IMG/VR virus record: IMGVR_UViG_3300028840_003267 | Origin: an uncultured virus (IMG/VR IMGVR_UViG_3300028840_003267) | Taxonomy: Duplodnaviria; Heunggongvirae; Uroviricota; Caudoviricetes | Length of the DNA: 64,000 nucleotides | Reading direction: 5' to 3' (one strand) | Shown here: positions 1 through 64,000 of the stretch, in pieces | How the letters are laid out: every line of letters begins with the position of its first letter | Position numbering within the stretch: position 1 is the stretch's first letter | The notes under the pieces: generated by a model | What the model was told of the DNA's origin: nothing | What the model saw: only the letters and a program-made list of their open reading frames with translations | Database searches by the model: none | Program-made: the position numbers and the translations under genes

Positions 1-1220
1 GCTACCGTTCGGTTGATCAGGTTCCCCGCGACAGACTCATCTACAAGAATCGATCCCTTCTCAATCGCATCAGCCCCGTAGGTCTGCCAATCGAAGAGAG
101 CGGTTCGGTTCGGAGACAGACCAGCAAAGGAGGCACATTCGATGCGCACATCTTTGTTCGTCGATCCCGTGAAGTCCGTATTGGGGTTCAGTGTCACTGT
201 ACCAGTTCCACCATTTCCAGCCGCTGCTGTGAGGGCAGAAACCGAAGAGAACTGGTTGGTGTTGTCGTAGGTTGGGTCCAATTCGATGACGGACGGTCCA
301 AGCGCGTTGAACTCAAAAACGTCACCAACAGCCCAGACACCAGGGTCAGCCGGGTCGAGGTCGACTAGCACACCAAGAGAGGTGAGCCCCATCTGAGAGT
401 CGAGGTCGTAAGCACCCGCGATAGCGACCGGGAAGGTCAGCCCGCTGATGTTCGGACCTACCGGATAGTCCGGAGTCAGGTTGTTGCCGCCACCCTCGTT
501 GGTGATGTCCACCAAGAAGGTCAGCGGTGCGAGCCCAACCGCCTCAAAGCGATAGTGCCTGTTGTGCTGCCCTGTGTAGGTGGCACCAACATTGACCGTC
601 GGAGTCGGAGCACCACCACCCGTAGCCGTCTGCTGAACAGGAGTGAACAGCGTAGTCGTCGCGTTCGCCACCGTCGGGTCCGGAACTGGATCCGTATTGG
701 AGGTGATAACGCGGTAGTCCACCTGCTCGGAGTAGAAATCCTGGTCCTGGTAGTCGCCTACTCTAACCATTTGACGCATCTCGTCAAACGGGACATCATC
801 GACAACATCTCGGTCGATGGTCTGGTAGTCGAGAGTGTAGGTCGAGGTGGAGTTGAAGGCTTCCGGCAACAGCAGAATTTGGTCGTATCCTGTGATACCG
901 GGAGCGGACTTCTGGAACTGCCACTTCGAGGCTGGAATGACAGCCCCCGACTGTGTAGTCATCGTTGCCAACGTCTGGTCGCCATCCGATGGGTGCGCAA
1001 GAGTTACCAAGTGCGGCACCGTCTGCGGGAAGGGGATGACCTCTCCCTGCAAAAACGCACGGCGGATCGGAACGTTCGCTGCGGTCGCAAGTCGACTACC
1101 CTTCCCAACGTAACAGGGTTGTCTTGGGTCGCCCGACAGCGTTCCGGCGTTGGGTGTGTAGATTCTTCCTAGGTACGAACCTGGGAGCACATATTGTGAT
1201 GTGACTAAGACGTCAGCCAT
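1..1220 (-). CDS. probable tail sheath protein (partial, runs off left edge)
   Basis: Not in the ORF track. My translation from ATG 1220 is open to the edge: MADVLVTSQYVLPGSYLGRIYTP...; YVxPGxY N-terminus and a T/G/V/P-rich beta-type body are typical of sheath proteins; GGAG SD upstream. Confidence 0.6.
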   Translation of the reverse strand, partial: MADVLVTSQYVLPGSYLGRIYTPNAGTLSGDPRQPCYVGKGSRLATAANVPIRRAFLQGEVIPFPQTVPHLVTLAHPSDGDQTLATMTTQSGAVIPASKWQFQKSAPGITGYDQILLLPEAFNSTSTYTLDYQTIDRDVVDDVPFDEMRQMVRVGDYQDQDFYSEQVDYRVITSNTDPVPDPTVANATTTLFTPVQQTATGGGAPTPTVNVGATYTGQHNRHYRFEAVGLAPLTFLVDITNEGGGNNLTPDYPVGPNISGLTFPVAIAGAYDLDSQMGLTSLGVLVDLDPADPGVWAVGDVFEFNALGPSVIELDPTYDNTNQFSSVSALTAAAGNGGTGTVTLNPNTDFTGSTNKDVRIECASFAGLSPNRTALFDWQTYGADAIEKGSILVDESVAGNLINRTV

Positions 1221-1324
1221 GGTTCTGAACGCTCCGTTCTTATTTGGTCAATTTCATCGATATCGTCTAAAGATAACCTCGCTCTAGAGAGGTCGTCTTT
1301 ATAAGACGCATCCGTGCGACCAGA

Positions 1325-1417
1325 TCATATGAGAGATACAGAGACTTCCTGAGTTGCAAAAATTCTAGCTTCGAGCCCTGTGGAGTTGCCATCAGCAACC
1401 ACTATGTTAAAAGTACC
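1325..1417 (-). pseudogene. orphaned (apparently native) 3' end of the 2658-3674 gene, 30 codons plus stop
   Basis: Translates GTFNIVVADGNSTGLEARIFATQEVSVSLI*, 25/30 identical to the C-terminus encoded at 2658-2750; no start codon of its own. Confidence 0.9.
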
Positions 1418-1560
1418 GTTCTCTTTCAACAAGTTCACGCTTCATCGACCTGCCTTGCTTCTCTAGTCCAGCTAGAGAAGTAGAGGACGTGGTCTCCACG
1501 TGCGTAACTTCCGGGAGAACTTCCCGTAGATTGATAGCTGCGTTCCGGTCTCTATCATGC
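1396..1560 (-). ncRNA. predicted TnpB omega/reRNA (scaffold overlapping tnpB 3' end, guide about 1415-1396)
   Basis: Minus strand reads ...GGAAGTTACGCACGTGGAGAC...GTCGATGAAGCGTGAACTTGTTGAAAGAGAACGG then flank; TnpB RNAs are known to overlap the gene end and take the guide from the flank. Boundaries approximate. Confidence 0.6.
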
Positions 1561-2600
1561 TCTGTCTTACAGACAGGACACACCCACGATTCCATTCCAA
1601 GCTTTAGTTCTGAGTACTTATAGCCACAACACGAACAGAGTTTGCTGGAAGGGAACCAACGATCTGCTAAGAGGACTTTTGTCCCATACCACTTCGCTTT
1701 GTACTCAAGTTGACGACGGAATTCGTACAATCCCACATCCGAGACAGCTCTGGAGAGATAACGATTCTTCAGCATCCCCACTACATTTAGGTCTTCGATA
1801 ACAATTGTAGAGTAATCTCTAACCAAGGATGTCGTCGCCTTATGCAGAGCATCTTTTCTGATATCAGCGATTCTCACATGAAGCTCCGCGATCCGATGTT
1901 GGAGTCGCGTCCGTCTGTTCGACCCCTTCTTCTTGTTGCGAAGTTGTCGCTGTAGTCTCTTAAGCTTCCTCAAGTTAGCTTTCAGCGGCTTCGGATTCTC
2001 ATAGAAGACACCATCGCTTGTAACAGCCATCCAACGAAGACCAAGGTCTACTCCTCCAACTGCTTGGTTTTCGCGCTGGAAGGAGCAAAGCGGGCTATCA
2101 ACCAAAAAACTGATGTACCACCGCTGGGCTCTTCGTGAGATCGTAGCGGACTTTATTTGGCCTTCAAAACGAAGCGCTTCTCGCATTCGTACCCAGCCGA
2201 GTTTTGGTATGCCGACTGATTTTCCATTAACCTGGACCGCATCGGCTCCTTTAGTTTGAGGACCATTATCCGCACGGAATGCGTCATGCCTCCCAAGTTT
2301 CTTATATTTCGGGTATTTAGCACGCTTATTGAAAAAGTTGTTGAAAGCCTTTCCCAGATTTTTAATCGATTGTTGTGGTACCGTTTTTGAAACGTCTTTC
2401 ATCCAAGGGAATTCAATATACTTGATCTTGTTTAAGTTTTTTCGGATCATAGCTTCACTTGGCTTTTCTCCCAATCGGTAAAGAGATACCCATTGGTCTA
2501 AAGCCCAATTATAAGCGAAGCGCGCTGTACCTGCTGCTTTCCTGAAGTACGTCTCCTGATCTGGGGTAGGAGATAACGCTATTTTATGTGCCACAAACAT
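1407..2600 (-). CDS. tnpB: RNA-guided endonuclease TnpB (IS200/IS605/IS607 OrfB), catalytically intact
   Basis: N-terminal HTH (AHKIALSPTPDQETYFRKAAGTARFAYNWAL), RuvC-I GVDLG, RuvC-II IVIEDL, zinc finger CSCCG...CPVC, RuvC-III HDRDRNAAINL. Confidence 0.95.
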   Translation of the reverse strand: MFVAHKIALSPTPDQETYFRKAAGTARFAYNWALDQWVSLYRLGEKPSEAMIRKNLNKIKYIEFPWMKDVSKTVPQQSIKNLGKAFNNFFNKRAKYPKYKKLGRHDAFRADNGPQTKGADAVQVNGKSVGIPKLGWVRMREALRFEGQIKSATISRRAQRWYISFLVDSPLCSFQRENQAVGGVDLGLRWMAVTSDGVFYENPKPLKANLRKLKRLQRQLRNKKKGSNRRTRLQHRIAELHVRIADIRKDALHKATTSLVRDYSTIVIEDLNVVGMLKNRYLSRAVSDVGLYEFRRQLEYKAKWYGTKVLLADRWFPSSKLCSCCGYKYSELKLGMESWVCPVCKTEHDRDRNAAINLREVLPEVTHVETTSSTSLAGLEKQGRSMKRELVERERYF

Positions 2601-2750
2601 TAAATTTCTATGTGATTGCTGCTCTATGCGCCTACTAGCTATCTAACCCTCTCTGAGCTATATAAGTGCCACAGACACCTCTTGCTTTGCAAAGATGTCG
2701 GCCTCAAGACCAACACTATTACCATTAGCCACGACTATATTAAATGTACC
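1416..2750 (-). mobile_element. TnpA-less IS607-like TnpB cassette carrying a recoded replacement gene end
   Basis: Both junctions fall at the GG of the same Gly codon (2750-2749 and 1417-1416); right end GAGAACGG; more AT-rich than flanking genes; no transposase gene. True left boundary may lie a few codons further upstream. Confidence 0.75.
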
Positions 2751-3674
2751 AACTTTCCTAGGGATGATGGTGTAGCCCCGTATCAGTGCCACACGGGGAT
2801 TGTCGCTGTAGATGACGGCGCTGTAGCGTTCGTTAACTACACGGAATGGTTGGGCTCTCCCCAACTTAACCGGAGAGGAAACAACGATTGTGGTGTCAGG
2901 GAAGTCATCGCTGTCTACAGGGGTATTCGGACCATAATCGGGCTCCGTCGGAACAGCAGCCTCCATATCGAGAGGTGTTGACCCCTCGAAGTGGACGTCA
3001 TCCAAGGACAGCGTAGCCGACCACAGCGACGAGACAGGGTCATCTCCGATGTTGATTCGCTCTCTGGAGCTGATGGTTTGATTCATCGGAAGCCGAACTT
3101 CCCAGGTTGACCCACCTGTAGGTGTCGTCGGCTTCAAGATTGTCTCTTTGGTGAACTCCTTCAAAGGCCCAAAGATATTGATAAGTTGGGAAGTTATCTG
3201 CCCTGTCGTATGTTCATCCAACGCCCCTACAAGAATATCGATGCTCCCCATGAGGAAGTTGCTGAGCCACAACGGAGAGTGCTGGAGCCCATCGGTCCCC
3301 GGCACGGAGATACCACCCGAGATGTCACTCAGAGAGTTCTGACGAGTCCAGCCAGTCTCCGCAATGACGATGCAAGGAAGACGCTGCTTGAGACCTTGCC
3401 ACATCCGAGCGATCTGAATTTTGTACTTTGTTGGGTCTTCGTATTCTCCAGGCCGAGGGACACGAACGTCTGTAACGAATTGTCCTACAGTTGGGCACAC
3501 AGACTCTACAAGTCTTCGATACTTCCCATCTGAATCGAAAAACTGATTAAGGTAGTGCTGGATGGCGGACTTGACGAGGACGAGGGACTCCTCATAGGCG
3601 TTGTTCTGAACAGCTTCAGCGGTGGATCGGGGAATATCCTTGTAGATGTAGTCCGGTGGTTTGGTAGCAACCAT
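2658..3674 (-). CDS. putative virion structural protein (tail completion/neck-like) with possible C-terminal Ig-like domain
   Basis: Directly upstream of the sheath-like gene; RLPCIVIAETG motif; C-terminal YSDNPRVALIRGYTIIPRKVGTFNIVV resembles a Big_2 Ig-like domain. Confidence 0.5.
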   Translation of the reverse strand: MVATKPPDYIYKDIPRSTAEAVQNNAYEESLVLVKSAIQHYLNQFFDSDGKYRRLVESVCPTVGQFVTDVRVPRPGEYEDPTKYKIQIARMWQGLKQRLPCIVIAETGWTRQNSLSDISGGISVPGTDGLQHSPLWLSNFLMGSIDILVGALDEHTTGQITSQLINIFGPLKEFTKETILKPTTPTGGSTWEVRLPMNQTISSRERINIGDDPVSSLWSATLSLDDVHFEGSTPLDMEAAVPTEPDYGPNTPVDSDDFPDTTIVVSSPVKLGRAQPFRVVNERYSAVIYSDNPRVALIRGYTIIPRKVGTFNIVVANGNSVGLEADIFAKQEVSVALI

Positions 3675-3730
3675 GAAGCCTCGTTGTGTCCAGAGGCGTA
3701 AAATGCCCCTAAATCACAATAACCGAGGAC

Positions 3731-4078
3731 TTACCCTTCGTTCGAGTCTGCGAGGATATCCTTCTTGGAGTCACGCATCAGGGTAGCTGCCTCCCTGAGA
3801 GTGCGCGCTGTGTCATCCTGATTCTTCGTGAAAGAATATGCTGCTCTCTCCAGTAGCCACTGAGAAGCCGCATCCACTCCAAAATAGGAACCCTGCTTTC
3901 GATTGAGAGCTTCCCGTTTATCCAGAGGATTGTCGACATCCTCCATGTCTGGAGCATCTGGCATGGATAGACAGTTCATGGATAGACAGTTGTAGTAGCC
4001 GACGGTGCAGTACATGTTGCTACAGTACGGACGGTCCTTGGTGATCTCCAGGTCACATAGAGGACAACAGTAGGTCAT
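3731..4078 (-). CDS. hypothetical Cys-rich protein
   Basis: ATG overlaps upstream stop (ATGA); CPLC...CSNMYC; contains a 15-bp tandem duplication at 3962-3991. Confidence 0.6.
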   Translation of the reverse strand: MTYCCPLCDLEITKDRPYCSNMYCTVGYYNCLSMNCLSMPDAPDMEDVDNPLDKREALNRKQGSYFGVDAASQWLLERAAYSFTKNQDDTARTLREAATLMRDSKKDILADSNEG

Positions 4079-5256
4079 TCTTGTAGTCCTTTCGTCGATC
4101 CCTGTTTTTGAGAGATAGGCGATTGTACAAATACCGTTCCCTGACCTCGTTTTCCAGAGCGTCCGGGTTTGAATCTGGCACCGTAGGGTCCAGAGAGATA
4201 CCTGTCCAAAGTGTTTTGAGCAACGTTCACTGCTGCTTTGCTCCTATGACCACATGTGGTACACAGGAACGTTTCACCGGACAGATTACTCCTCTCGGTA
4301 CTTCCACATGCTGAACAACACGTCTTGGTATATACAGGAGCGGTAGAGCGAAAGCGAGAACGTCTCATCTCACACTCTCTATGAAACCTCTCCAACCAGT
4401 AGGTGTATGCCCAGATACCGAGAGATCGTTGCTTGTTTTCTGGCGAGCAACGTCCGCCTATCGCATCCTTCTTGGGTTTGGCACGCTCAAGCACAAAGAG
4501 CTTGACATGCTTACGCCCAATTTCTTTGACTACTTCATTCAGACGCTGTTTGAGCGCTCGCTGCGCCTTCCTGTGGCCCTTTGACCCAGGCACGCATCTT
4601 TGTACACGATCGACATAGCGTCCGATGTCCGTACCGTACTTCGTGCCATCGGAGATAGTGGCAAGAGTCTCCCCATTTGTGTAGACTCCGACCTGCTTGC
4701 CCTTGGTCCTCTTCTCCCCGGTCTCAAGTTCAAAGATGAATTGTACTGAGTCCCGATAGACATGGATAGTATTGACGCGCCTTCCTTTGGCGCTCAATTG
4801 ATTGAAATGCTTGTGGAATTTTATAGGAAAAGCGATGCATATCCCCTCTCCTGTATCCGAATACTTCCCAACTCCACGCAATCTAAACCAGGCGTCAAAA
4901 GAATCTGTCTTTTTGGAGTCCGTCAGATAGGCGGTGTCAAAATGGAGAGTCATTGACCGCCCTTTATAGTTCGGCTTCTTTTGTGGCGTCCCTGGTCTAT
5001 TCGTTATAGACCGGATGTTTCGCAGAGCCTCACGAGCCGCGTCCCTTTTGAATTTATATCCCAGCCACGTCGGAGGGATTGATTCGATGACAGGCTTCAA
5101 GAGGTCATTATTATGAAGGTATCGCGACTTTTCCCAGAACAAGTCGATGTACAACCGCACCACCCTGCCGTACTCGTCTATAATCTCAGACAAGATGTCC
5201 AGCTTGTGTGGATTGGTGTACTTCAAGGTACAGCGTGTCGAGCGATAAACCTTCAT
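4075..5256 (-). CDS. TnpB/Cas12f-like protein with inactivated RuvC
   Basis: TnpB layout with zinc finger CSACG...CTTCG; RuvC-I reads GVYTN (D to Y), RuvC-III reads KAAVNVAQN (D to A), RuvC-II Glu kept (FVLER). Confidence 0.8.
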   Translation of the reverse strand: MKVYRSTRCTLKYTNPHKLDILSEIIDEYGRVVRLYIDLFWEKSRYLHNNDLLKPVIESIPPTWLGYKFKRDAAREALRNIRSITNRPGTPQKKPNYKGRSMTLHFDTAYLTDSKKTDSFDAWFRLRGVGKYSDTGEGICIAFPIKFHKHFNQLSAKGRRVNTIHVYRDSVQFIFELETGEKRTKGKQVGVYTNGETLATISDGTKYGTDIGRYVDRVQRCVPGSKGHRKAQRALKQRLNEVVKEIGRKHVKLFVLERAKPKKDAIGGRCSPENKQRSLGIWAYTYWLERFHRECEMRRSRFRSTAPVYTKTCCSACGSTERSNLSGETFLCTTCGHRSKAAVNVAQNTLDRYLSGPYGARFKPGRSGKRGQGTVFVQSPISQKQGSTKGLQE

Positions 5257-5302
5257 GACAATATACTTTGACTACCTTTCTTTGAGAATTGCTCTCAAAA
5301 CT

Positions 5303-5794
5303 TCAGCGTTTTTTGTTCCACGTGTTCGTGAGCCTCGACTCAAGCCACTTGAGTTCTCTCTTTTCGATGCGCGGGAGTCTCGCGCTCCGGAGTCCTTGCT
5401 TGGAAGCTCCGACGCGACGTCCCGTCTTTCGACTGTAGCGCTCCTCTCGCTGTCCGCACGAAATGAGGATCTGCGTTTCCGTTGTCCGGACGACCTGGTG
5501 TGTGGTTTTGTACCAATCGCCTTTCCACCGCTTGACCTCAACTGTGGGAACCGTTCTCAAGCTGTCGATATGCACATGAGAAGAGATGAGGCTGTCGACC
5601 ATGGACTTTGGCCAAGGAACGTCGGTTTCCCGATGGCTCGACGCCTGCTTGTAGGTGTATAGGCCAGCCCTTTCGATATTGAGGGTGTAGCCATTGCCGT
5701 CTGGACCCCACCACAGAACGCAGTCTCCTACCACACTGCGTGTGTCCTGAATGTAGTACAGCTCTTCCTCTTTGTTTGCCATCTGTCTTCTCAC
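5303..5794 (-). CDS. hypothetical phage protein
   Basis: ORF just downstream of AGTCAAAG motif; start GTG 5794 or ATG 5782. Confidence 0.65.
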   Translation of the reverse strand: MRRQMANKEEELYYIQDTRSVVGDCVLWWGPDGNGYTLNIERAGLYTYKQASSHRETDVPWPKSMVDSLISSHVHIDSLRTVPTVEVKRWKGDWYKTTHQVVRTTETQILISCGQREERYSRKTGRRVGASKQGLRSARLPRIEKRELKWLESRLTNTWNKKR

Positions 5795-5852
5795 TTACTG
5801 TACTTTGACTGGATTTCGATAACAGTGGAACCGCATAGTAACGTAGGAGGTG

Positions 5853-5993
5853 TTAGTGTGCGGAAACGGAGGTTCTACTTGAGGCTTTCTTGTCTAGCTT
5901 TTCAATGACCTTACGGACGAGTCGGAGACGATAGCGCGCAGACACCTTAGCCATCTCAACGGCACGATAGGACTTCTCGTTGGAAGAGGTCAT
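5853..5993 (-). CDS. small basic hypothetical protein (46 aa)
   Basis: Not in track; MTSSNEKSYRAVEMAKVSARYRLRLVRK...; ATGA overlap with upstream stop. Confidence 0.45.
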   Translation of the reverse strand: MTSSNEKSYRAVEMAKVSARYRLRLVRKVIEKLDKKASSRTSVSAH

Positions 5994-6322
5994 TTCTTCG
6001 CCCAACCGTCAGGCAGCTTGCCCTTCTGAGCCTTGTCGCTGTTGATCTGAGAGAGGATCTCCAACTCCAGCATAGCACTGACGATATCGTCTTCAAGATT
6101 GGACCCAAGCCCCCTCGGAAGAAGCAGGCGCATCCTTGTGTCACGACTGTTATCGTTTATGTTGATAAAGCCAACACCTGCATGGTAGTAGATTTGGATG
6201 GTATGTGGCTCATCTCGGATATCCACCCGATACATCCCCACACCATCTCGGCGAACCGCCACGCCTCCAGACAGGAACAGCACGACATCACCGTCAACGA
6301 AGTCAATCTTCCGTTCGCTCAT
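5990..6322 (-). CDS. hypothetical protein
   Basis: Start moved to MSERKIDF, preceded by AGGAGG. Confidence 0.6.
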   Translation of the reverse strand: MSERKIDFVDGDVVLFLSGGVAVRRDGVGMYRVDIRDEPHTIQIYYHAGVGFININDNSRDTRMRLLLPRGLGSNLEDDIVSAMLELEILSQINSDKAQKGKLPDGWAKK

Positions 6323-6635
6323 CGCCTTCCTCCTCCTGATCCTTTGACTCGTTTTCTGAGCCTTCATCGGAGGAAGTGTCCTCTGCAACCTCTGGATTGA
6401 CGGTCGCCTTGACTTCGATGTTGTTGCCATCGACTTCGATGCTCTCGGCAGGGAGGGCTCCAGCTTCAATCTGCGCCGCGACCTGCCGACCCTTCTCTGT
6501 CTTCATGAATCTACTGAAGATCCTCTTTCGCTTCGCCGTCTGCGCGTGAGCATGCCTCTTCTCCATCCCAACGACCATGGCTTTTGCCATCGCACCACCG
6601 TGACTTTTCTTGTTGCCGTACTTTATTTTCCCCAT
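6303..6635 (-). CDS. hypothetical protein, basic N-terminus and acidic C-terminus
   Basis: TGATG coupling to upstream gene, GAGG SD. Confidence 0.65.
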   Translation of the reverse strand: MGKIKYGNKKSHGGAMAKAMVVGMEKRHAHAQTAKRKRIFSRFMKTEKGRQVAAQIEAGALPAESIEVDGNNIEVKATVNPEVAEDTSSDEGSENESKDQEEEGDERTED

Positions 6636-6916
6636 CAGCTTCTCCTCTTAGCTTCAAAAAACCGTTGTTGTTCCACAATCTTAGCCACACCATCGATGGA
6701 GACGCCTGCAACCGTGCACGCCTCCACCAACCTGTCGACTCGATCATTGTTCTCTTCTGACCTCTCGAACACTTCCCCATCGATGTGGCGATACAAGAAA
6801 GCGAGGTCAGCCATCATCGATACGGGGTGAGTGCTATTGCTCTCCACCTCTTGGATGAAGTAGTCGATGCGCTCACCCCATTCGTAAGACGTCAGAATCA
6901 TTCGGTTCCCTTTCAT
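6635..6916 (-). CDS. hypothetical protein
   Basis: GAGGTG SD, tightly packed after nrdJ. Confidence 0.65.
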   Translation of the reverse strand: MKGNRMILTSYEWGERIDYFIQEVESNSTHPVSMMADLAFLYRHIDGEVFERSEENNDRVDRLVEACTVAGVSIDGVAKIVEQQRFFEAKRRS

Positions 6917-6922
6917 AGCACC

Positions 6923-9979: not shown

Positions 9980-10027
9980 TCTTTCCCTATCCTTCCGCTG
10001 GCTTACAGAGCCACGTGCTGATTCTAG

Positions 10028-10183
10028 TTACAGGATGTCTGCCCAATCCCAAGCGAGCCCATGGACCGCGATATCAACACAGTCCATGGTCACGGCACAA
10101 CAGCGTTTGAAGACAGCACCTAATGCTACGGTTTTGGAGTAAATGGCTACGGCGAGAAATACGAGGCTTCCTACAAGAGTCAT
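10028..10183 (-). CDS. small putative membrane protein (51 aa)
   Basis: Not in track; MTLVGSLVFLAVAIYSKTVALGAVF...; purine-rich SD and AGTCAAAG motif upstream. Confidence 0.4.
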   Translation of the reverse strand: MTLVGSLVFLAVAIYSKTVALGAVFKRCCAVTMDCVDIAVHGLAWDWADIL

Positions 10184-10267
10184 GCGGTCTCTTCCTTCAC
10201 GATCTGCTGTGCTGAATCGGTAGGCAACGTTAACGTAACCTACTCGTCGTACCCAAGACTTTGACTA

Positions 10268-10510
10268 CTATTCGTTGGAACAGACCTTCTTCACCCATTC
10301 CACCAAAAGCTTCTTAACATCGGGAGTGGGAGGAAGGTGTCCTAGAAGGCACACAGGTCCTACAGGAGTTCTGCTCATGCGATCCCCGCACACAAGACAA
10401 ATCTCATTTTTCTTCAAGAATCCCTCGTAGCGCAGCGCAATATGACGCCAACTCTCAGCTAGCTCCCGCTGACACTTCAGATACCCATGCTCATCCGTCG
10501 TGCTACCCAT
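10268..10510 (-). CDS. hypothetical protein with possible zinc ribbon
   Basis: ATG 6 nt after AGTCAAAG; CLVCG...CLLGH. Confidence 0.6.
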   Translation of the reverse strand: MGSTTDEHGYLKCQRELAESWRHIALRYEGFLKKNEICLVCGDRMSRTPVGPVCLLGHLPPTPDVKKLLVEWVKKVCSNE

Positions 10511-10727
10511 ACCATACTTTGACTACTCTACTTTTAAAGAGCAGACAGAGAGTTGTGGCCACTTATAAAACGCTATATCTCGCCAAAAGTGGGGTCAAAA
10601 AGCGACTTCTGGCGGAATATAGCTTGACACCTCACTCAAAACATGGGACAACATACTCGAAGGTCGGGTACCTTCAAGGAGGAGGTGAAACATGCATCCA
10701 ATTTAGCATAGCTAAACGGAGGCATTC

Positions 10728-10916: not shown

Positions 10917-10919
10917 TAA

Positions 10920-11168: not shown

Positions 11169-11192
11169 CAAGCGCATCTGTCTTCTGATAGA

Positions 11193-52364: not shown

Positions 52365-52366
52365 GC

Positions 52367-53350: not shown

Positions 53351-53352
53351 AG

Positions 53353-55749: not shown

Positions 55750-55752
55750 TGA

Positions 55753-56586
55753 CTAAATCCTCCACTTGACGCGTACCCAACCAGTTGCATTCGTTGTGGC
55801 ATTTCCTCCAGCCTGATTGGTTACTGCTAGAACACCCCCTTGGGTGAAGTTACCGTCAAGGTTGGTAGCTTGTCCAGCCACGGCTGCTGAGGCTACTGTA
55901 GCACGAGATGTACCACTTTCTACGATATCGAAGGTCATCGCATCTGTGTCGTCACGAGTATAACCAAATGATACGATGGTTCCATTGAAGTGAGCGGTGT
56001 ACCCATTTGTAGCGGAGAGTACTAGTCCGTCCGTTCCTGAGTAGTATGACCCAGTAGCTGTGATTCCTGCTCCACCAAATTGTATGACACTCGACTCTAT
56101 AGAGAGCCATTTCGACCTGGTTCCATCCCACATCATGATCATATCTAGTACAGTATTGTAGTAGATATCTCCTTCAACAGGAGGGGGAGTTGCTGGGTCA
56201 GTAGCTGAGGGTGGATATTTCGAGCTGAAGGCTTGGCCTCCAATCGTACTTCCGTCCAAACGTAGAGTAGAATCTACCACCAAATCAGACTTATAGATGA
56301 TGTAGGTTGTACCTCCAATATTAAGTTGCACGGTAATGGTCTGGTCTGACGTATCACGATTGTGAATGGAAAAATCACTGATTAGACGGCGTGTGTTAGC
56401 AGCAGGAGCTGCTACAAGAGTGACTGGGGTTGTTCCACTGGTATTGACTTGATTGCTGTCTTCCGTGAACGCTGTACCTGTCTCGTCAGCGTAGTGAGCT
56501 ACACATTGAAGCTCGTTCGTCGTGACGGCTCCTCCAAGAACAACTTCAAGGGATTCATTTACTGCCCCTAAAACCCAAGCAACCAT
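55753..56586 (-). CDS. putative tail fibre/virion protein
   Basis: TDPATPPPVEGDIYYNT...WDG..WLS motif common in fibre proteins. Confidence 0.65.
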   Translation of the reverse strand: MVAWVLGAVNESLEVVLGGAVTTNELQCVAHYADETGTAFTEDSNQVNTSGTTPVTLVAAPAANTRRLISDFSIHNRDTSDQTITVQLNIGGTTYIIYKSDLVVDSTLRLDGSTIGGQAFSSKYPPSATDPATPPPVEGDIYYNTVLDMIMMWDGTRSKWLSIESSVIQFGGAGITATGSYYSGTDGLVLSATNGYTAHFNGTIVSFGYTRDDTDAMTFDIVESGTSRATVASAAVAGQATNLDGNFTQGGVLAVTNQAGGNATTNATGWVRVKWRI

Positions 56587-56587
56587 A

Positions 56588-58117
56588 CTAGAACCCCATC
56601 CAGCTTCGAGACTTCATGCTGATGTTTTCTCCGCTACTGCTATCCCCACAAGCATTCCAACGTGCTGTGGTAGCATCATACTGTAAAGAAATAGCCGCCC
56701 CATTCAATAAGACCATGGAGGCACTCTTCCCTGTGATAATACGGTTGGCGGCTACAGATCCTGCATTCTCATTCTCCAAAGTGAGGTCATATCCTGTGCG
56801 ATTGACGATAGTTAGAGTCTTCCCGTCTACACCATTCGCAAATCCTGTGATGTAGACAGTCCCAGCCCCCGTGAAACGCATGAAGGAAGTACCTGCTGTA
56901 GATACGTCATTCAGCGTTCCTGTCGAGGCGTTGTCTGCGCCCATCTCAAAGATGAACTCTTCGGTTACTGTCAGGTCTCCATTGATCGTAGCTGCTGGGG
57001 TAGCGAAGTTCCCGTAGATAAGGGGAGTGGCTGTATTCGAGTTCGAGATATACAGTGTGTTCGATCCCGTCTCAGAATATCCTGCTTGGTACCCTAAAAA
57101 TACATTTCCAGACCCGGTGACTAGGTCGTGTCCTGATCCTGAACCAAGTGCCGTATTTGTACTACCAGTGTTTATCAATAGAAGAGAATTATGACCGATA
57201 GCGACCATGTCTGATGCTGTTGTGTAGTCTTCTGCTGCACTGAATCCCATAGCGCAGTTTCGTACTCCTGTGGGGATTGTACCTGTATTTCCTCGAAGAG
57301 AAGAAGTGCCTACTGCTGTATTTCCATCTGTTGTTCGTGAATATCGAATGGTATCGAATCCTACAGCTACGTTATCGTCCCCAGAACGGTTGTTAGCTAA
57401 GGAGACGTATCCTATAGCTACATTTTGAGCGCCACCTTGGTTGAAGGTGAGAGACTCTTGTCCTACGCCGACGTTTCGATTTCCGGTAGTATCTTGAAGT
57501 GCATTGGAACCTACTGCCACATTTTCTAGGCCGCCTCCTATAGACCTCATAGCGAAGTAGCCTACTGCTACATTTTTGGAGCCGGTTGTCAGATTATATA
57601 AAGTGTCGGCACCTATGCCTGTATTGTTGCTTCCTGTCGGAGGAGTTACTCCATCTCCTCGCATTGAATTTCCTCCGATAGCAACACAAGCAGTTGGTGT
57701 GGTTCCGTAGCACAATGCTCGGTATCCGAGCGTAGTGTTATAACTAGCAGACGTGTAGAAAAGAAGAGATTCTGTACCAACAACCGCGTTGTACGACCCT
57801 GTTGGCGTGGTAATAAAATTTCCTTGAAGGGCATACGCGCCCATCGCTACATTTCCGGTTCCTATCTGCGTTTCTTGTAGTGCCTGGTCTCCTAGACCTA
57901 CATTGTAGGACCCTGTAGTTAAGTTACTACAAACTTGACGTCCTTGACCTACGTTGTTTGTTCCCGTTAGGGTATAGTTCCCACTATTGGTTCCAAGGAA
58001 TAAGTTTGCTGTACCATAGGTGTGTAGGAGACTGTTTCCTTGCTGAACGAGTGTGCCGAAGTCCAAGCCGGTTGTCGTGCGGATCTCAGGGCTATTTCTG
58101 AACTTGTAAGTAGACAT
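56588..58117 (-). CDS. tail fibre/adhesin with NxAxG beta-roll repeats
   Basis: Many roughly 14-aa repeats (NVAMG, NTGIG, NVAVG, NTAVG, NVFLGYQAG). Confidence 0.8.
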   Translation of the reverse strand: MSTYKFRNSPEIRTTTGLDFGTLVQQGNSLLHTYGTANLFLGTNSGNYTLTGTNNVGQGRQVCSNLTTGSYNVGLGDQALQETQIGTGNVAMGAYALQGNFITTPTGSYNAVVGTESLLFYTSASYNTTLGYRALCYGTTPTACVAIGGNSMRGDGVTPPTGSNNTGIGADTLYNLTTGSKNVAVGYFAMRSIGGGLENVAVGSNALQDTTGNRNVGVGQESLTFNQGGAQNVAIGYVSLANNRSGDDNVAVGFDTIRYSRTTDGNTAVGTSSLRGNTGTIPTGVRNCAMGFSAAEDYTTASDMVAIGHNSLLLINTGSTNTALGSGSGHDLVTGSGNVFLGYQAGYSETGSNTLYISNSNTATPLIYGNFATPAATINGDLTVTEEFIFEMGADNASTGTLNDVSTAGTSFMRFTGAGTVYITGFANGVDGKTLTIVNRTGYDLTLENENAGSVAANRIITGKSASMVLLNGAAISLQYDATTARWNACGDSSSGENISMKSRSWMGF

Positions 58118-58119
58118 GA

Positions 58120-58992
58120 TTACACACTTGTGGTCCAGGCACGGAACCTACCTGTTGACGAAGTCCAGCCCGCTTCGTTAGCGCTCGTATACTGGACTTG
58201 TCCTGCTGCGGTGATGGTGAATTCGATATTTGAGTAGTCTCCTGTTGAGGTGACAGTCATGTCCCAACCAGTCCCTCGTTGCATCCCGTAGAGATTGAAT
58301 ACCTCTCCAAGATCTACAGTGGCATCGATGAACACACTGACTTGTGCCCGAAAGCTACGAACAATGGCAGAACTGAAGACGAGACCTGTTACGTCAGCGG
58401 CTACGGCTTGGTTGTTTGCAGGAGTCCAGATTGTTTCTGGAATGTCTCCAGAGAGACCTGACCCGAAGTTTCGGAGGACTAGCTCATCATCTACTTTAAC
58501 TACCTCTAACCATCCGTTCTCCGTCGTAATGGTGAGGTTCGCGGTGCTTCCAGAGATGGTGTTGCCATTCGGGTCCAGAATGGCATTGTTCGTTGCCGTA
58601 TTGTACATGAAGAAACTACGTCCTTCAGGCCAGGTAGCTATTGTTGCTGGAACAGGTAGAGTGAGAGTACGGTTCCCGCCAGAGGTGTCGACTTCGATGT
58701 GGTCGAAGAGCCAAGTTTCAGCAGCTCCGTAGTCCGCAGCCGTATTGACGGTGGCAGGTTGCTGAGGAGCACGCTGCCAGCTAGCAGATACGTCGGGAGC
58801 ATTGGTGAGGTCGCCTTCTTCGGCTCCAGTACCAACCGCTGTCACACATTCCCAGACGTAATGATTCCAGTAGACTTGGTCGCCGACAATGTAGGTGTCT
58901 GTTTCGTCGTAAAGACCAACGGAATCGTTGAGAGATGCGCCTGTAAGGGTGTCTTCTTGAAGCTGCCCTTGTCTTAGGAGCGTTCGCGGCAT
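58120..58992 (-). CDS. virion protein with carbohydrate-binding-module-like segment
   Basis: YDETDTYIVGDQVYWNHYVWEC...P...W resembles CBM5/12. Confidence 0.6.
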   Translation of the reverse strand: MPRTLLRQGQLQEDTLTGASLNDSVGLYDETDTYIVGDQVYWNHYVWECVTAVGTGAEEGDLTNAPDVSASWQRAPQQPATVNTAADYGAAETWLFDHIEVDTSGGNRTLTLPVPATIATWPEGRSFFMYNTATNNAILDPNGNTISGSTANLTITTENGWLEVVKVDDELVLRNFGSGLSGDIPETIWTPANNQAVAADVTGLVFSSAIVRSFRAQVSVFIDATVDLGEVFNLYGMQRGTGWDMTVTSTGDYSNIEFTITAAGQVQYTSANEAGWTSSTGRFRAWTTSV

Positions 58993-58999
58993 CTAATCA

Positions 59000-59773
59000 T
59001 CATTCAGGGGACCTGGGAACATGCTCTTCAAGAGTGCAGTGCTCCATGAGGTCATCCCAGGATTTGAAATGTCGCTTACAGCCTCCACATTGGTATCGCC
59101 CATCGGCTCGAACAGCAGCTCTCTGAGATTCTTTGATCTCTGTCAACGGGTCTTGTGGAGTTGGAGTTGGAAGAGCCGGAACTTCTTCCTTCTCCTCTGT
59201 TGGCACGACGTTCTCAGGCTCAGATAGTTCAGGTACTTGAGTTTCTTCTGTTTGAGCTTTGATTTCTTCAGCCTGTCTTCGTGCTTTGATAGAAGGGAGG
59301 GGTCTCTGCCCTGTTTGTCGTCGATGAGGTTCCGCTGCTGTTGGGTCAAGAATCTGTTCCCCTTCTGCGCCTTCAGCACATTTGGCTAGGAAGATTGCCT
59401 GTTGTATGGCAGCTTCTTCCTTGTCAAACAGCTTCTTCACCTCGAAGATGCTCGCCTTGATTCCTGTAGACTTAGCTTCCAGTTTGACGTGCGCGTCATG
59501 CGCCATCCGAGCTGACTCTTCACAGATGTTCATCGACCGTGTGATGTACAGCTTGACAAGTTTGGCTACTTGGAGGTCTTTTATGACCCCTTCGTCTACA
59601 TCCTTATCTACGTGCTCATGAAGAGCCTGAATCTTTGGGGAGAGCCCTCCAACAGCTAGAGCCGCTCCCTCAGCCTTCAGTTTGGCTTCCTTCAACCCTT
59701 CAAGAAGGTCGTCGAGACGATTCCCAATTTCGTTGAAGGCTTCACGTTTGATCTTGTTTTTAGCTAAAGTCAT
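59000..59773 (-). CDS. coiled-coil protein with C-terminal C2H2 zinc finger
   Basis: YQCGGCKRHFKSWDDLMEHCTLEEH; AGGAG SD. Confidence 0.65.
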   Translation of the reverse strand: MTLAKNKIKREAFNEIGNRLDDLLEGLKEAKLKAEGAALAVGGLSPKIQALHEHVDKDVDEGVIKDLQVAKLVKLYITRSMNICEESARMAHDAHVKLEAKSTGIKASIFEVKKLFDKEEAAIQQAIFLAKCAEGAEGEQILDPTAAEPHRRQTGQRPLPSIKARRQAEEIKAQTEETQVPELSEPENVVPTEEKEEVPALPTPTPQDPLTEIKESQRAAVRADGRYQCGGCKRHFKSWDDLMEHCTLEEHVPRSPE

Positions 59774-59827
59774 CTAAGTTCTCCTAAATACTACAGTTTC
59801 TCAAGAACAGTTAGCTCAAGTTACAGT

Positions 59828-61378
59828 TTAGACGTCATCAGCATCGTAGGCGATGACGCAGAGAACATCGTTGACCTTTACGGAGAACTCAAACATGAGC
59901 TGCCCGTTGACCAAGGAGGTTCCTGGGTAGTAGTCGTTGTTTGCCGCAGCGTCTGCGCCTGGACGGAGAAGCTCACCATTCAGATAGGTGTCATAGTCCG
60001 TCAGGAAGGCACCTGCCGACATGTCAGGGAGCTGCGCGTCGAGGTTTGCGCCACCACCAACACCACCAACGTCGTTGTTCGCGGCTGTCGTGGATGTACA
60101 GTTGGCGTAGACCTTGGTTCGTCTCGTTCCAGTCTTGGACGCTTGCACGATGGCGTTGAAGAGCGAGACTTCACCACCGAAGGCTACTTCGTAGGCGTCC
60201 CATTCTGCCGTCGTCTCAGTCAGCTTGACGTCAGCAGCCCATGTTGAACCTGTGCGGTTCCCATCGTCGAAGCGCAGCTCTTGAGTACCGTCGATAATCA
60301 GGTCGGCTGCACCGTTGGTCTCGATACGACCCGCGTTGACACCGATGTCGATCTGAGTCGTTCCGGAAGCCACTTGGACACCAGAAGCGAAGTCGACGTC
60401 AATCGCATCGTTGTCGTAGAGGTCCGTGTCGGGACCGATTGTGACCTCACTCGAACCACCCGCCGAACCTTCTGTGATTTGGAAGAGGACTGCTTCTGCG
60501 TCATCTCTGATGACCCATGTCAGGCCAGCACCTTCCAAGTCGAGGATAGAGTTGGTGATCACGTCGACCGGAGTTGCACCCTGGTTGGTGTAGACGGTCT
60601 GACGAGTAGCAGTAGTTCCCGCGATGTCATCGATGAAGGCTCCGCTGAGGTACGCATCTTCCGGGATGTTGTCGAAGGCGACTCGTCGGACGTAGGAGTA
60701 GTTGATCGTCTGACCACCAATGTCGCCAGCAGGGCACTGCTCCAAGTCGTCTGCGGTGGCGTTGTTACGCACGAAGGAGATCTGGACACGCTGAGCGACA
60801 TCGTTGAAGGTCTGCCCATCTACGTTCGCTTCGCATTGGAGGAGACCGTAGATAGTACGACCAGAGGAGAGAATCGGGTCTCCTGTCGTGCCATCTCGAA
60901 TTTCCAAGAGGTTCTTGGGGTGAAGGGCGTCACTGCCTGCTACCTCTACAAGAGACGCAGCAGGGAAGCCAGCGTCGAACGCGACGACAGCACCCTCTGT
61001 GGTGACCGCACCGACAGCACCGACCTGAGACGGCGTTTCAGAGCCAGCGACCGAGAGGACTACGTAGGCTTGGGCAGCAGGTACTGCTATGTCCGTGAGG
61101 ATCTGCGCACGGAAGAGGAGGCGCTTCTCTTCGATGTCGTCAAGGTCGACGTTCAGAGCTGCGATACCTCTCTTTTTCGCGTTCGCTGTCTGGTTGTCAT
61201 CATACCAGTTTCCAGCCGCGTCTGCCCATGTGTGGCGTTTCAACTGCGAGCGGATCGCGTTGAGATCTGCTTCAACCTCTGTTGGGGCAGTCTCCATAGT
61301 CACGCCAGCAGCTACGGTGTCGTCGTAAACGTCCGAATTTCGGATTTGTGTGTCTTGTCGGATGAATGTTCTAGCCAT
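59828..61378 (-). CDS. putative virion structural protein
   Basis: Acidic, A/G/T/V rich; YLNGELL...DY motif; strong phage codon bias. Confidence 0.65.
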   Translation of the reverse strand: MARTFIRQDTQIRNSDVYDDTVAAGVTMETAPTEVEADLNAIRSQLKRHTWADAAGNWYDDNQTANAKKRGIAALNVDLDDIEEKRLLFRAQILTDIAVPAAQAYVVLSVAGSETPSQVGAVGAVTTEGAVVAFDAGFPAASLVEVAGSDALHPKNLLEIRDGTTGDPILSSGRTIYGLLQCEANVDGQTFNDVAQRVQISFVRNNATADDLEQCPAGDIGGQTINYSYVRRVAFDNIPEDAYLSGAFIDDIAGTTATRQTVYTNQGATPVDVITNSILDLEGAGLTWVIRDDAEAVLFQITEGSAGGSSEVTIGPDTDLYDNDAIDVDFASGVQVASGTTQIDIGVNAGRIETNGAADLIIDGTQELRFDDGNRTGSTWAADVKLTETTAEWDAYEVAFGGEVSLFNAIVQASKTGTRRTKVYANCTSTTAANNDVGGVGGGANLDAQLPDMSAGAFLTDYDTYLNGELLRPGADAAANNDYYPGTSLVNGQLMFEFSVKVNDVLCVIAYDADDV

Positions 61379-61444
61379 TATAGCCCCTTCTACGAAGCGA
61401 AAGCACGTTCATTATAAGAATAACCTTGGACAATCCCTCGCATT

Positions 61445-61981
61445 TTAAGGGGCTGGCGTGAAGTCAAGCCACAGCTTGTCACCAGTCTTAGGTGTAAAGT
61501 TCGTAGATATCAAATCATAACCAGTTCCTGGAGCTGACTCGGAGACGATATAGTCGTTTCCAGCACCCTCTTCGAGCCGCACTCCGTTGTAGAGAAGTAC
61601 CTCTGTGTCTGGGTTAGCGTGGATGAACTTCGTCGGTGAGGTGAAGTTCGTATTCACCCCGTCTATGACTCCTACAACAGGTTGATTGTAGTAGCGATTC
61701 CCAGAAGGTGCTGGACCTCCTGCACCATCTGGATAGGCCCAAAGATTGAGAATCTGCTCGTAGTTGAGGACGACATCGTTGATAACAACTGAGAGTCGAC
61801 CTTCCTTGAAGAGCTTGGCCAACCTATTACAGTAGGCAGGTGTCTCCTGGAAGATGAAGTGAGAGAAGGGTGTAATCGTCTTTGGGGCGAGATACTTCCC
61901 TGCCAACTGCACTTTCGCAAGCGTGCGGTTGTAGACTTCTACAACGAGATAGCAGTCTTTGTCGTAAGTGCAGGTAGCCAT
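61445..61981 (-). CDS. putative virion structural protein
   Basis: GVIDGVNTNF...YNGVRLEEGAGNDY...PKTGDKLWLDF repeat module typical of large-phage virion proteins. Confidence 0.65.
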   Translation of the reverse strand: MATCTYDKDCYLVVEVYNRTLAKVQLAGKYLAPKTITPFSHFIFQETPAYCNRLAKLFKEGRLSVVINDVVLNYEQILNLWAYPDGAGGPAPSGNRYYNQPVVGVIDGVNTNFTSPTKFIHANPDTEVLLYNGVRLEEGAGNDYIVSESAPGTGYDLISTNFTPKTGDKLWLDFTPAP

Positions 61982-62027
61982 TCAGATTGGTGCTCTCCAA
62001 TCTGAAATAACCTCTGTGAGCGAAAAG

Positions 62028-62507
62028 TTAGGGTCTGCGAAGCGGTTCTACTTCCAGGCTGACTTGGTAGGGAGGGAAACACTGGATGATTCTGGTAAGG
62101 AACTCATACAGGTCGAAGGCGTCGTCGTGGGCGTAGAGGATACCGCTAGCCACTACCCCTTTGTCTGAAGAATACAGGGAGACATGACAGCAGGGAGATG
62201 TGAGGTTACAAAGACCCTCCATCCCAGAGGACCAGCTAATCTCGAAGTCTTCCATTCTTGTAGTGTCATTCGCGGATTTGTCGAGCGCGAGGTAGAGACA
62301 GGAGTTTTTCCAGTCTCGGAGAGCCTGTCCTGTAATGGCTTTATCAGGGATAAGTGGAGGAAATGCCAAGCTAAAGCTGACTCCTAAGATGTCCTCTTCT
62401 TGAAAGAGCGCTTGAACGTCAAGTCCTCTCTGAATGTCGCCTTTCATAGTGGCATCGACATCCCAATCGATCTTAATCTCAGTCGAGACTGTTCCTTTGG
62501 TGCTCAT
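62028..62507 (-). CDS. hypothetical protein
   Basis: AGTCAAAG motif and AAGGA SD upstream. Confidence 0.65.
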   Translation of the reverse strand: MSTKGTVSTEIKIDWDVDATMKGDIQRGLDVQALFQEEDILGVSFSLAFPPLIPDKAITGQALRDWKNSCLYLALDKSANDTTRMEDFEISWSSGMEGLCNLTSPCCHVSLYSSDKGVVASGILYAHDDAFDLYEFLTRIIQCFPPYQVSLEVEPLRRP

Positions 62508-62539
62508 GGTAGAATCCTTTCTACCATACTTTGACTAGA

Positions 62540-62995
62540 TTACTGAAGGAGGGAGAGGGCACATTGAGGACCGAGACCGCGAGACACGCTTCCAGGGACA
62601 GTCAGGCGTCGTCCGCACTTTCCACAGCGACCTTCATGGAACACCTTGGCGGTTCCCAATTTCGCTGTGAAGTTAGCCACATCGGCACGACGGAGAACCC
62701 AGATGAAGGACTGCAAAAGGGAATGGTTCGGTTCATAGGCGGCGTTCCCCTTGAAGTAGACACGCCTTTCCGAAGGGTCTCCAACGATGTAGCCGATGTT
62801 CCTGTAATTGGTGTTGTTGTCAGGACCTACAAGAACCATCACCGTCCAGATCGGCTTGTCGTAGCCTTCGCCTTGAACCTTGACTACCTTGAAGGTCCTG
62901 TGGAGACCAGAGGGTGATTCAACAGTGAAGATCGCCTTGCCTGCGAAGATGAAAGCCCACACTGCGTCTGCCGGAAGCTGTCCTCTGTCACTCAT
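62540..62995 (-). CDS. DUF6011-like zinc-finger protein
   Basis: GRCGKCGRRLTVPGSVSRGLGPQC; GGTTGGAGG leader and TTGACA upstream. Confidence 0.8.
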   Translation of the reverse strand: MSDRGQLPADAVWAFIFAGKAIFTVESPSGLHRTFKVVKVQGEGYDKPIWTVMVLVGPDNNTNYRNIGYIVGDPSERRVYFKGNAAYEPNHSLLQSFIWVLRRADVANFTAKLGTAKVFHEGRCGKCGRRLTVPGSVSRGLGPQCALSLLQ

Positions 62996-63095
62996 GCTGC
63001 CCTCCAACCTCTTCCTTTGTCTCATATATTGAAGACGTTGTCAAGGTAAAAAGTAGGGAGGGAGAGGAGGAGAGATCTGTGGGGGATTCTTGTAG

Positions 63096-63536
63096 CTACT
63101 TACATGTAGGTATTGAGGAGATGTCCCCCTCAAACTGCTGGAGGTCTACAATGACCGCGTAGGCGTCGTACCGCTTCAATAAGATGAGACGATGCTCGAT
63201 CGGCAAGATCCAGTATCCTGGGTTGTGAGGGGTGATAACAACCAATCCCTCTTCGGATTCGATATCGTAGGTGCCAGGAATCAGCGTTCTGAACTCGTTG
63301 TCGTAGACCTTATGCAGAGGATGAACAAGGAAGCAGCCTTTCATCGCTCTCCCGAATTCATGAACGATTTTCACCTTCCAGAATTCCCCATCTGTAGGCA
63401 GCCGCTTGCCGCAGTCCGGTTTCCACCGCCGGTCAATGACCGAGATCTTCTGAAGGGTTCGGCTGATGACTTCGTTTTTGTTGTCGCTGCTAGGGTTTGG
63501 GTTGGTGTAGAACTTACAGATCGTAATCGCAGACAT
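63096..63536 (-). CDS. hypothetical protein
   Basis: Start moved to MSAITICKF after AGGAG. Confidence 0.6.
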   Translation of the reverse strand: MSAITICKFYTNPNPSSDNKNEVISRTLQKISVIDRRWKPDCGKRLPTDGEFWKVKIVHEFGRAMKGCFLVHPLHKVYDNEFRTLIPGTYDIESEEGLVVITPHNPGYWILPIEHRLILLKRYDAYAVIVDLQQFEGDISSIPTCK

Positions 63537-63585
63537 GTCTAAAGCTCCTAAAACGTTTAGTTTATCTAATGAAGTTTCGTTCGGA

Positions 63586-64000
63586 CTATGGAGTTGGGTT
63601 AAACTGCACCTCCACCCATTCGAGGAGGATAGTGTCGGCACCGTCCCCTTCAACTACCAACTGAGCACTGAATGTCTCTCCTTCTGTGAACGTAAAGCCC
63701 GCTGTGTCCAAAGTTACAGTAGTGACTTCCCAGGCTCCTGTTCCCACCACGACGGTTGTTCCTACAAGAGTCCCTGCCGTATCATATACAGATACCGTGA
63801 TATCTGTCCCAAGGGTGGTTGGTGTGTTGTGCCTGAAGACCACCGCAACAGGAGGGTTGGCTTTGGAGAGGAGGGAGAAATAGAAGGTTGCGGTCTGCTG
63901 TACCGGAGTTCCAGCGATGACGTTGATTTCTTCTCTGGTGTGGGGAACAGGCAATGCGGAATAGGTTGCCTCGGAAGAGATCCAAGTAGCATTTGAGAGC
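63586..64000 (-). CDS. putative virion protein, C-terminal part (runs off right edge)
   Basis: Frame stays open to the window edge (LSNATWISSEATYSALPVPH...); T/V-rich beta sandwich composition. Confidence 0.55.
   Translation of the reverse strand, partial: LSNATWISSEATYSALPVPHTREEINVIAGTPVQQTATFYFSLLSKANPPVAVVFRHNTPTTLGTDITVSVYDTAGTLVGTTVVVGTGAWEVTTVTLDTAGFTFTEGETFSAQLVVEGDGADTILLEWVEVQFNPTP

What the first reader, a model, noticed from the sequence alone, without database searches (positions are those of the whole stretch)
41..63769. Strongly over-represented motif CTACAAGA(AT) on both strands
Seen: by eye I count about 49 copies of CTACAAGA/TCTTGTAG (about 2 expected at uniform composition) and about 25 of the 10-mer CTACAAGAAT/ATTCTTGTAG (about 0.1 expected), e.g. 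41, 3227, 4077, 8276, 9064, 16925, 19051, 19356, 19558, 21995, 26166, 27890, 28064, 28127, 28294, 29315, 33608, 35366, 36796, 46897, 48929, 49241, 53114, 62254, 63086. It lies inside genes in both orientations and in different frames (YKN, ILV, LQE), is densest at 27.5-29.6 kb around the prim-pol gene, and overlaps the -10 box of several early promoters (ATTCTTGTAGTGT). Inference: a selected DNA signal such as a binding site for a phage genome-organising, protective or repressor protein, a Chi-like site, or a packaging/ejection signal.
Basis: partly seen in the sequence, partly recalled or inferred. Interest (0 to 1): 0.7.

Follow-up and report, generated by a model that had tools for sequence, protein, structure and literature searches.

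The report
Saturating DNA word in jumbo phage
An uncultured large phage writes one ten-letter DNA word into nearly every spot where its genes allow it, even changing its proteins, and also on its early promoters, which points to an unidentified protein that reads the word all over the phage genome.

Summary
Observation confirmed and larger than reported. It occurs 47 times in the window and 134 times in the 186-kb record, 68/66 by strand. In genes it occurs 95 times against 11.8±3.2 under a codon-pair null. It fills 94 of 112 places where synonymous codons allow it (reversed control 0 of 35), and it inflates the tripeptides it encodes (YKN 21, NKY 3). Spacing is random and there is no transcription polarity. 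Of 18 sigma70-like promoters, 13 carry a site with at most one mismatch (background 12%); two other promoter classes are at background. Best reading (about 50%): the site of a phage-made double-strand DNA-binding protein that marks the whole genome as self and blocks early promoters. The protein was not found, the host is unknown and no DNA of close relatives was reachable. It resembles Haemophilus/Neisseria uptake sequences statistically and mycobacteriophage operators at promoters, but fails defining tests of both. The scan noted similar words in other large phages (e1-6143757, e1-5339779).

The parts
41..63095 (.). 47 copies of CTWCAAGAAT. Starts with strand: 41+ 3227+ 4077- 8276- 9064- 9121+ 10412+ 11196- 11586- 16925+ 17247- 19051- 19356+ 19558- 20703+ 20770- 21016- 21995- 26166+ 26602- 27310+ 27890+ 28064+ 28127+ 28294+ 29315- 29555- 33608- 35366+ 36796+ 37656- 38067- 38406+ 38994+ 41216- 42629+ 45282- 46070+ 46466- 46897- 48929+ 49241+ 49777- 52858- 53114- 62254- 63086-. 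The 8-mer core CTWCAAGA occurs 104 times.
11165..11205 (+). sigma70-like promoter with a perfect site (11196-11205, minus strand) directly after the -10 box, before a 165-aa gene
   Evidence: promoter by consensus only
24863..24891 (-). canonical early promoter; one-mismatch site CTACCAGAAT over spacer and -10 box
25262..25291 (-). canonical early promoter (18-bp spacer); one-mismatch site
25673..25701 (-). canonical early promoter; one-mismatch site
26163..26191 (-). canonical early promoter; perfect site over spacer and -10 box
33139..33167 (-). canonical early promoter; one-mismatch site, plus a second one-mismatch site at the -35 box
33578..33620 (+). early promoter of the ArdC-like gene; perfect site over spacer and -10 box, one-mismatch site upstream of -35
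48417..48445 (-). canonical early promoter; two-mismatch site
49238..49266 (-). canonical early promoter; perfect site
27500..29600 (.). densest stretch of the window (12 CTWCAAGA), over and beside the prim-pol gene (28199-29992, minus strand, PF09250)
22430..22439 (-). site inside the M3 peptidase gene that puts Lys six residues after the HEXXH motif, where 113 of 119 homologues have Leu
39525..48015 (+). block holding three N6/N4 DNA methyltransferase genes (39525-40358, 40986-41756, 46879-48015) and PolA; relevant to the methylation rival only

Best explanation
CTWCAAGAAT(C) is the binding site of a phage-encoded, sequence-specific double-strand DNA-binding protein. Shown: the word is selected at DNA level and saturates the genome. 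Inferred step 2: on promoters read by host sigma70 polymerase it acts as an operator and shuts early transcription by occlusion. Inferred step 3: the hundreds of genic copies mark or organise phage DNA as self. Each extra site gives the molecule a small cis advantage (protection from nucleases, or priority in replication or packaging), so sites pile up wherever proteins tolerate them, whatever the orientation or spacing.
For: Counts survive five nulls. 94 of 112 synonymous opportunities are filled, and 32 of 32 in the YKN/FKN frame. Sites arose repeatedly: 34 sites in 18 kinase paralogues fall in 26 distinct column/orientation/frame classes. A likely protein cost is paid: Lys for a Leu held by 113 of 119 homologues. 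Positions 1, 2, 4, 6, 7 are nearly strict and 5, 8, 9, 10 graded. 13 of 18 intergenic sigma70-like promoters have a site with at most one mismatch and 7 of 18 a perfect one (background 12% and 4%); AGTCAAAG promoters 3 of 27 and late-type promoters 2 of 36 are at background. Sites lie over -35, over spacer/-10 or after -10, in both orientations; one promoter with two sites drives the operon that ends in a sigma-like gene. The word is about 40 times or more sparser in all 81 and all 121 bacterial genomes sampled.
Against: No reader protein was found (Pfam, PHROGs, NCBIfam, Atlas); the record is about 50% complete by CheckV. 11 of the 18 promoters are one homologous class and not independent; counted by architecture, 4 of 8 carry a perfect site. 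Promoters are consensus matches only. Seven of the 11 canonical promoters have imperfect sites, and their fixed position would also fit a promoter element. Conservation in relatives is mixed and protein-level only. A repressor does not by itself need 84% saturation of genes.
Confidence: 0.5

Rival explanations
1. Chi-like signal: the word halts or redirects a nuclease (the phage's SbcC-like enzyme or host RecBCD/AddAB). DNA with more sites survives and recombines better, so sites spread by molecular drive.
For: Non-palindromic, graded 3' end, no polarity, saturation, SbcC-like gene present. That recombination-driven replication gives no strand bias is inference from general knowledge.
Against: Does not explain the restriction to sigma70-like promoters. 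Far denser than in any sampled bacterium, so no host Chi is seen, but the host is unknown.
Confidence: 0.15
2. A host protein reads it (nucleoid protein, global regulator or uptake receptor), and the phage mimics or titrates that protein.
For: Early promoters must work before phage proteins are made (general knowledge). Density of 0.72/kb equals that of USS/DUS (PMC2817400: 1,471 per 1.83 Mb, 1,891 per 2.18 Mb).
Against: The TnpB and ArdC genes are poor in sites. The host was not identified, so the test is incomplete.
Confidence: 0.12
3. Template recognition word of the phage prim-pol, giving a priming site about every 1.1 kb per strand.
For: PF09250 gene in the densest window stretch. The 8-mer mean gap is 1.13-1.16 kb per strand. 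NrS-1 prim-pol reads an 8-nt word (PMC8718748, passages). Slight strand alternation of 8-mers, 180 against 161, p=0.023.
Against: Gaps are not regular: CV 1.02-1.07, equal to the null, largest gaps 6.2-6.7 kb. Density varies about five-fold between gene groups. Priming gives no reason for operator-like placement.
Confidence: 0.1
4. Methylation-linked repair bias, as proposed for cyanobacterial HIP1 (recalled): a phage methyltransferase marks part of the word and repair converts near-matches.
For: Three N6/N4 methyltransferases, weakly CcrM-like. The 3' half reads GANTC in 102 sites.
Against: GANTC overall is at expectation (909 against 928). Only 59 of 134 sites have the final C. Graded, non-palindromic 10-11 bp specificity is unlike a methyltransferase target (general knowledge).
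Confidence: 0.08
5. Dispersed packaging-initiation signal read by the small terminase.
For: An HTH protein lies beside the terminase. Competition between sibling molecules would favour more sites (inference).
Against: No positive evidence. Head genes are the least enriched core group (8-fold). Promoter placement is unexplained.
Confidence: 0.05

Closest known systems
Uptake sequences USS (Pasteurellaceae) and DUS (Neisseria); PMC2817400, parts 2-3 and passages read
   Same: 9-10 bp non-palindromic word, about 0.7-0.9 per kb, equal on both strands, mostly in genes, enriches the tripeptides it encodes over reversed controls, arises by point change.
   Different: Here it is in a phage. Spacing is random, whereas USS/DUS are more even than random. 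No terminator-like inverted pairs stand out. Sites sit on sigma70-like promoters. Tripeptide enrichment reaches 7-fold (YKN) against about 2-fold. No uptake function is shown.
Operator/stoperator network of cluster A mycobacteriophages (L5, Bxb1, TipsytheTRex); PMC9283540 and PMC6550527, passages read
   Same: Asymmetric site, dispersed over a phage genome, some copies on early promoters.
   Different: Stoperators number 20-30, lie in short intergenic spaces and follow transcription. Here there are 134-323, mostly inside genes, 125 sense and 132 antisense. No repressor or integrase was found.
Chi sites (recalled) and NrS-1 primase word TTTGGTTA (PMC8718748, passages read)
   Same: Short asymmetric words read by DNA-processing enzymes.
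   Different: No replication polarity, no even spacing, and a promoter association that neither predicts.
Phage nucleoid proteins that also repress early promoters: SPO1 TF1, phi29 p6, T5 D5 (recalled; search found no paper)
   Same: Same proposed logic: an abundant phage DNA-binding protein both coats the genome and shuts early promoters.
   Different: As recalled, those read base modification or DNA shape, not a fixed word written into genes. No HU/IHF-like gene was detected here.

Membership tests
USS/DUS uptake sequences | High density, both strands, non-palindromic | tested here: met
   134 in 186 kb, 68/66
USS/DUS uptake sequences | Encoded tripeptides enriched over reversed controls | tested here: met
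   YKN 21/3, FKN 11/0, ILE 47/12, ILV 23/10, LQE 34/13
USS/DUS uptake sequences | More even spacing than random | tested here: not met
   CV equal to local-density null
USS/DUS uptake sequences | Abundant in the chromosome of a competent host | tested here: inconclusive
   Not enriched in 81 and 121 sampled genomes; host unknown
USS/DUS uptake sequences | Biases DNA uptake | not testable with these tools
   needs a transformation assay
Cluster A operator/stoperator | Asymmetric site on early promoters | tested here: met
   13 of 18 sigma70-like promoters, consensus promoters only
Cluster A operator/stoperator | Oriented with transcription | tested here: not met
   125 sense, 132 antisense; intergenic 23 and 25
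Cluster A operator/stoperator | Mostly in short intergenic spaces | tested here: not met
   29 of 134 intergenic
Cluster A operator/stoperator | Temperate phage with an HTH repressor | tested here: inconclusive
   No PF00589 integrase in G000, no repressor family hit; record incomplete
Chi sites | Polarity along the replichore | tested here: not met
   Both strands mixed in 10-kb bins; a phage may have no fixed replichore
Chi sites | Alters a helicase-nuclease | not testable with these tools
   needs biochemistry
Primase recognition word | Regular spacing on each strand | tested here: not met
HIP1-type iterated palindrome | Palindromic word | tested here: not met
   the sequence is asymmetric

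The most novel reading that the evidence does not exclude
The phage has its own uptake-sequence-like self tag. A private protein-read word confers a cis advantage on DNA molecules (escape from the phage's own DNA degradation, or priority in recombination or packaging) and has been driven to 84% saturation at the expense of protein sequence. Promoter control was added later. This would be molecular drive of the USS/DUS type in a virus.
Probability: 0.3. Interest if true: 0.8.

Novelty: new variant of a known kind. Interest (0 to 1): 0.62.

Why it matters
Words that reshape a proteome at this density are documented for Pasteurellaceae and Neisseria (PMC2817400). A phage case implies a sequence-based self/non-self code instead of base modification. 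It gives a direct bait for finding the protein, and a system in which selection and molecular drive could be told apart. Similar notes on other large phages in this scan (unchecked) suggest a recurring class. I found no description in the library searched, which lacks most subscription papers.

Tried and rejected
Codon or peptide artefact: rejected by four shuffles and a codon-pair model. The N-terminal peptide L[LI]EAGYKN as the cause: it explains only a few sites, and homologues keep the peptide pattern without YKN (P0139, P0235, P0157). Repeat element: flanks show no consensus beyond position 11. DNA of close relatives: megablast of phages found none; viral scans gave no close relative or the same phage; the metagenome scan gave the same genome. 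The 3 and 60 pattern hits were unrelated and not enriched. G088 shares only kinases, RNR and DnaB and has 1 site in 113 kb. Five distant cultured or reactor phages (PaBG, Ep032, GR11A, Rctr197k, NCTB; 50 kb each) have 0, 0, 1, 0, 1 sites and no comparable word. Sequencing runs: 2 of 4 hold the stretch, both possible sources, no base variants; no RNA holder listed. Host: M3 peptidase homologues are only 35-38% identical, named ones being Bacteroidota; not informative. Reader search: gene G000 operon protein of 275 aa had no Atlas hit at 0.9 or more. No structure prediction or complex job was run. Supplements of the papers were not read.
Full report
Source. The window lies in G000, a 186,314-bp virus record, about 50% complete by CheckV. 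Its major capsid protein is 31-34% identical to those of PaBG, phiRSL1 and Yoloswag-type jumbo phages. A second record of the same phage, G001, adds 24.7 kb. The runs that hold it are sediment and seawater metagenomes. The host is unknown.

Observation. The window holds CTACAAGA 50 times and CTACAAGAAT 26 times, and all 25 coordinates given are right. The word is CTWCAAGAAT: 134 copies, 68 and 66 by strand, with 323 of the core CTWCAAGA. The extension has 15 in 24.7 kb. Against an order-3 Markov expectation of 2.6, changes at positions 1, 2, 4, 6 and 7 leave 0-6 copies per variant, while positions 5, 8, 9 and 10 are graded, for example G at position 9 in 44 copies against 2.7 expected. An eleventh C is preferred (59 of 134). 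Flanks carry no further consensus.

Chance. I called genes with my own model and used the 160 best-scoring of 214. They hold 95 10-mers. Nulls give 6.1±2.7 (synonymous shuffle within genes), 4.4 (genome-wide), 12.7±3.8 (with next-residue context), 1.1 (codon order; all) and 11.8±3.2 with a maximum of 20 in 100 runs (codon-pair model).

Saturation and cost. Of 112 places where the 10-mer can be written by synonymous change, 94 have it; the reversed word fills 0 of 35. All 21 YKN and all 11 FKN use the exact word. The encoded tripeptides exceed their reversals: YKN 21/3, FKN 11/0, ILE 47/12, ILV 23/10, LQE 34/13. In 18 kinase paralogues, 34 sites fall in 26 distinct alignment classes, so most arose separately. 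In the M3 peptidase a site puts Lys six residues after HEXXH, where 113 of 119 homologues have Leu; relaxed function of that gene is not excluded.

Distribution. Sites are 125 sense and 132 antisense. Gaps per strand match a local-density null; one small departure is strand alternation of 8-mers, 180 against 161 (p=0.023, one of several tests). Intergenic density is 1.16/kb against 0.65/kb in genes. Enrichment over a composition null is 8-fold in head genes, 12-fold in tail, 15-fold in replication, 18-fold in kinases and 27-fold in the N-terminally tagged genes; structural against the rest p=0.009 (groups assigned by me). The TnpB at 1407-2600 and the ArdC-like gene have no site, but each has only one opportunity, and the GIY-YIG gene has four.

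Promoters. Three promoter-like classes are visible. Of 18 intergenic TTGAC-N16-18-TAnnnT matches, 13 have a site with at most one mismatch within 60 bp and 7 a perfect one; random intergenic windows give 12% and 4%. The AGTCAAAG class (3 of 27) and the RGTTAYYT class (2 of 36) are at background. Eleven of the 18 are one homologous class with the site over spacer and -10 box: 4 perfect, 6 with one mismatch, 1 with two. Their first nine spacer bases vary while the site is kept. Three unrelated promoters carry perfect sites at -35 or just after -10; one has two sites and leads into an operon ending in a sigma-like gene (Atlas lead only). Counted by architecture, 4 of 8 carry a perfect site. Varied position and orientation suggest occlusion by a bound protein more than a promoter element; this is inference.

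Elsewhere. Five distant phages lack the word. In 81 genomes of one phylum the highest density is 44 per 2.5 Mb. In 121 genomes of the phylum of a Desulfobacterales MAG the 11-mer reaches 11 per 1.7 Mb, against 59 per 186 kb in the phage. Close relatives were reachable as proteins only, and the result is mixed. The PolA FKN site is kept in P0002 (74%) but reads FTN in P0003 and P0004. P0243 (63%) keeps EAGYKN but not the adjacent ILE. P0135 (47%) keeps YFKK and has ILV for ILE, the swap that the W position allows. These are anecdotes.

Mechanism. Shown: DNA-level selection or drive, near saturation, no polarity, no regular spacing, association with sigma70-like promoters. Inferred: a phage protein binds the word on double-stranded DNA, shuts early promoters, and gives each molecule a cis advantage that grows with site number (0.5). 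Rivals: Chi-like (0.15), host reader (0.12), primase word (0.10; lead from e1-5873261 and e1-5999142, spacing tested here), methylation-linked repair (0.08), packaging (0.05).

Comparison. Statistically it works like USS/DUS (PMC2817400; parts 2-3 and passages read) but fails even spacing and has no known competent host. At promoters it works like cluster A operators (PMC9283540, PMC6550527; passages) but fails orientation and intergenic location. It is a member of neither. Searches found no paper on such a word in this phage group (listings only). The scan's unchecked notes e1-6143757 and e1-5339779 report the same gene-plus-early-promoter pattern in T4-like giant phages, and e1-5833113 counted the same 134 copies in what appears to be this phage.

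Verdict. A real and unusually strong signal, new variant of dispersed protein-binding words, mechanism unproven. Interest 0.62.

Noticed in passing
L001:2137-19251, L002:2199-10930, L005:17254-18018 (outside window): About 19 paralogous protein-kinase-like genes (30-50% identical), most in one array with Tpt1/ADP-ribosyltransferase-like and phosphoribosyltransferase genes.
   Followed up: partly
window 31525-32142 (-); L001:7115-11754; L005:4387-4713; L002:12541-12906: Unrelated proteins share an N-terminal helix pattern (L[LI]EAG..EA..LL), also in homologues; several follow a late-type promoter. Possible head-targeting signal (inference).
   Followed up: partly
window 27551, 30789, 34644, 37000, 40356, 41831, 49275 and about 20 more: Second word AGTCAAAG in sense orientation before genes, sometimes 6-7 nt before ATG; probable phage-sigma promoter with leaderless starts.
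   Followed up: partly
upstream of structural genes, e.g. window 1220-1310 region, 31528-32230, 61378-61460: Third word RGTTA(T/C)(C/T)T before structural, kinase and tagged genes; probable late promoter.
   Followed up: partly
L007:12475-13698 (-): 408-aa sigma70-like protein (Atlas 0.94-0.95, lead only) after a MoxR-type ATPase.
   Followed up: partly
whole record G000: Strongly avoided words CTCGAG (0.02), CTGCAG (0.06), CAGCTG (0.08), CATCAA (0.15), CCCGGG (0.18), GGCC (0.34): host with many restriction systems.
   Followed up: no
L024, L026, L034, L039, L041: Unrelated 58%-GC phages carry the near-palindrome GTTAGT(G/C)ACTAAC about 10-13 times per 20 kb.
   Followed up: no
window 16076: One base differs between the window and the G000 file; contigs of runs X1 and X2 agree with the window.
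   Followed up: partly
window 1407-2600 and 4075-5256: Two TnpB-like genes; earlier notes e1-5833119 and e1-5833113 discuss them.
   Followed up: no
window 45624-46550: Radical SAM protein with weak RlmN/Cfr-family matches, far below cut-offs.
   Followed up: no
L003:1853-2356: Lipoprotein-like gene with an acidic double-disulfide repeat below cut-off; I recall this repeat from Myxococcota, a weak host hint.
   Followed up: no
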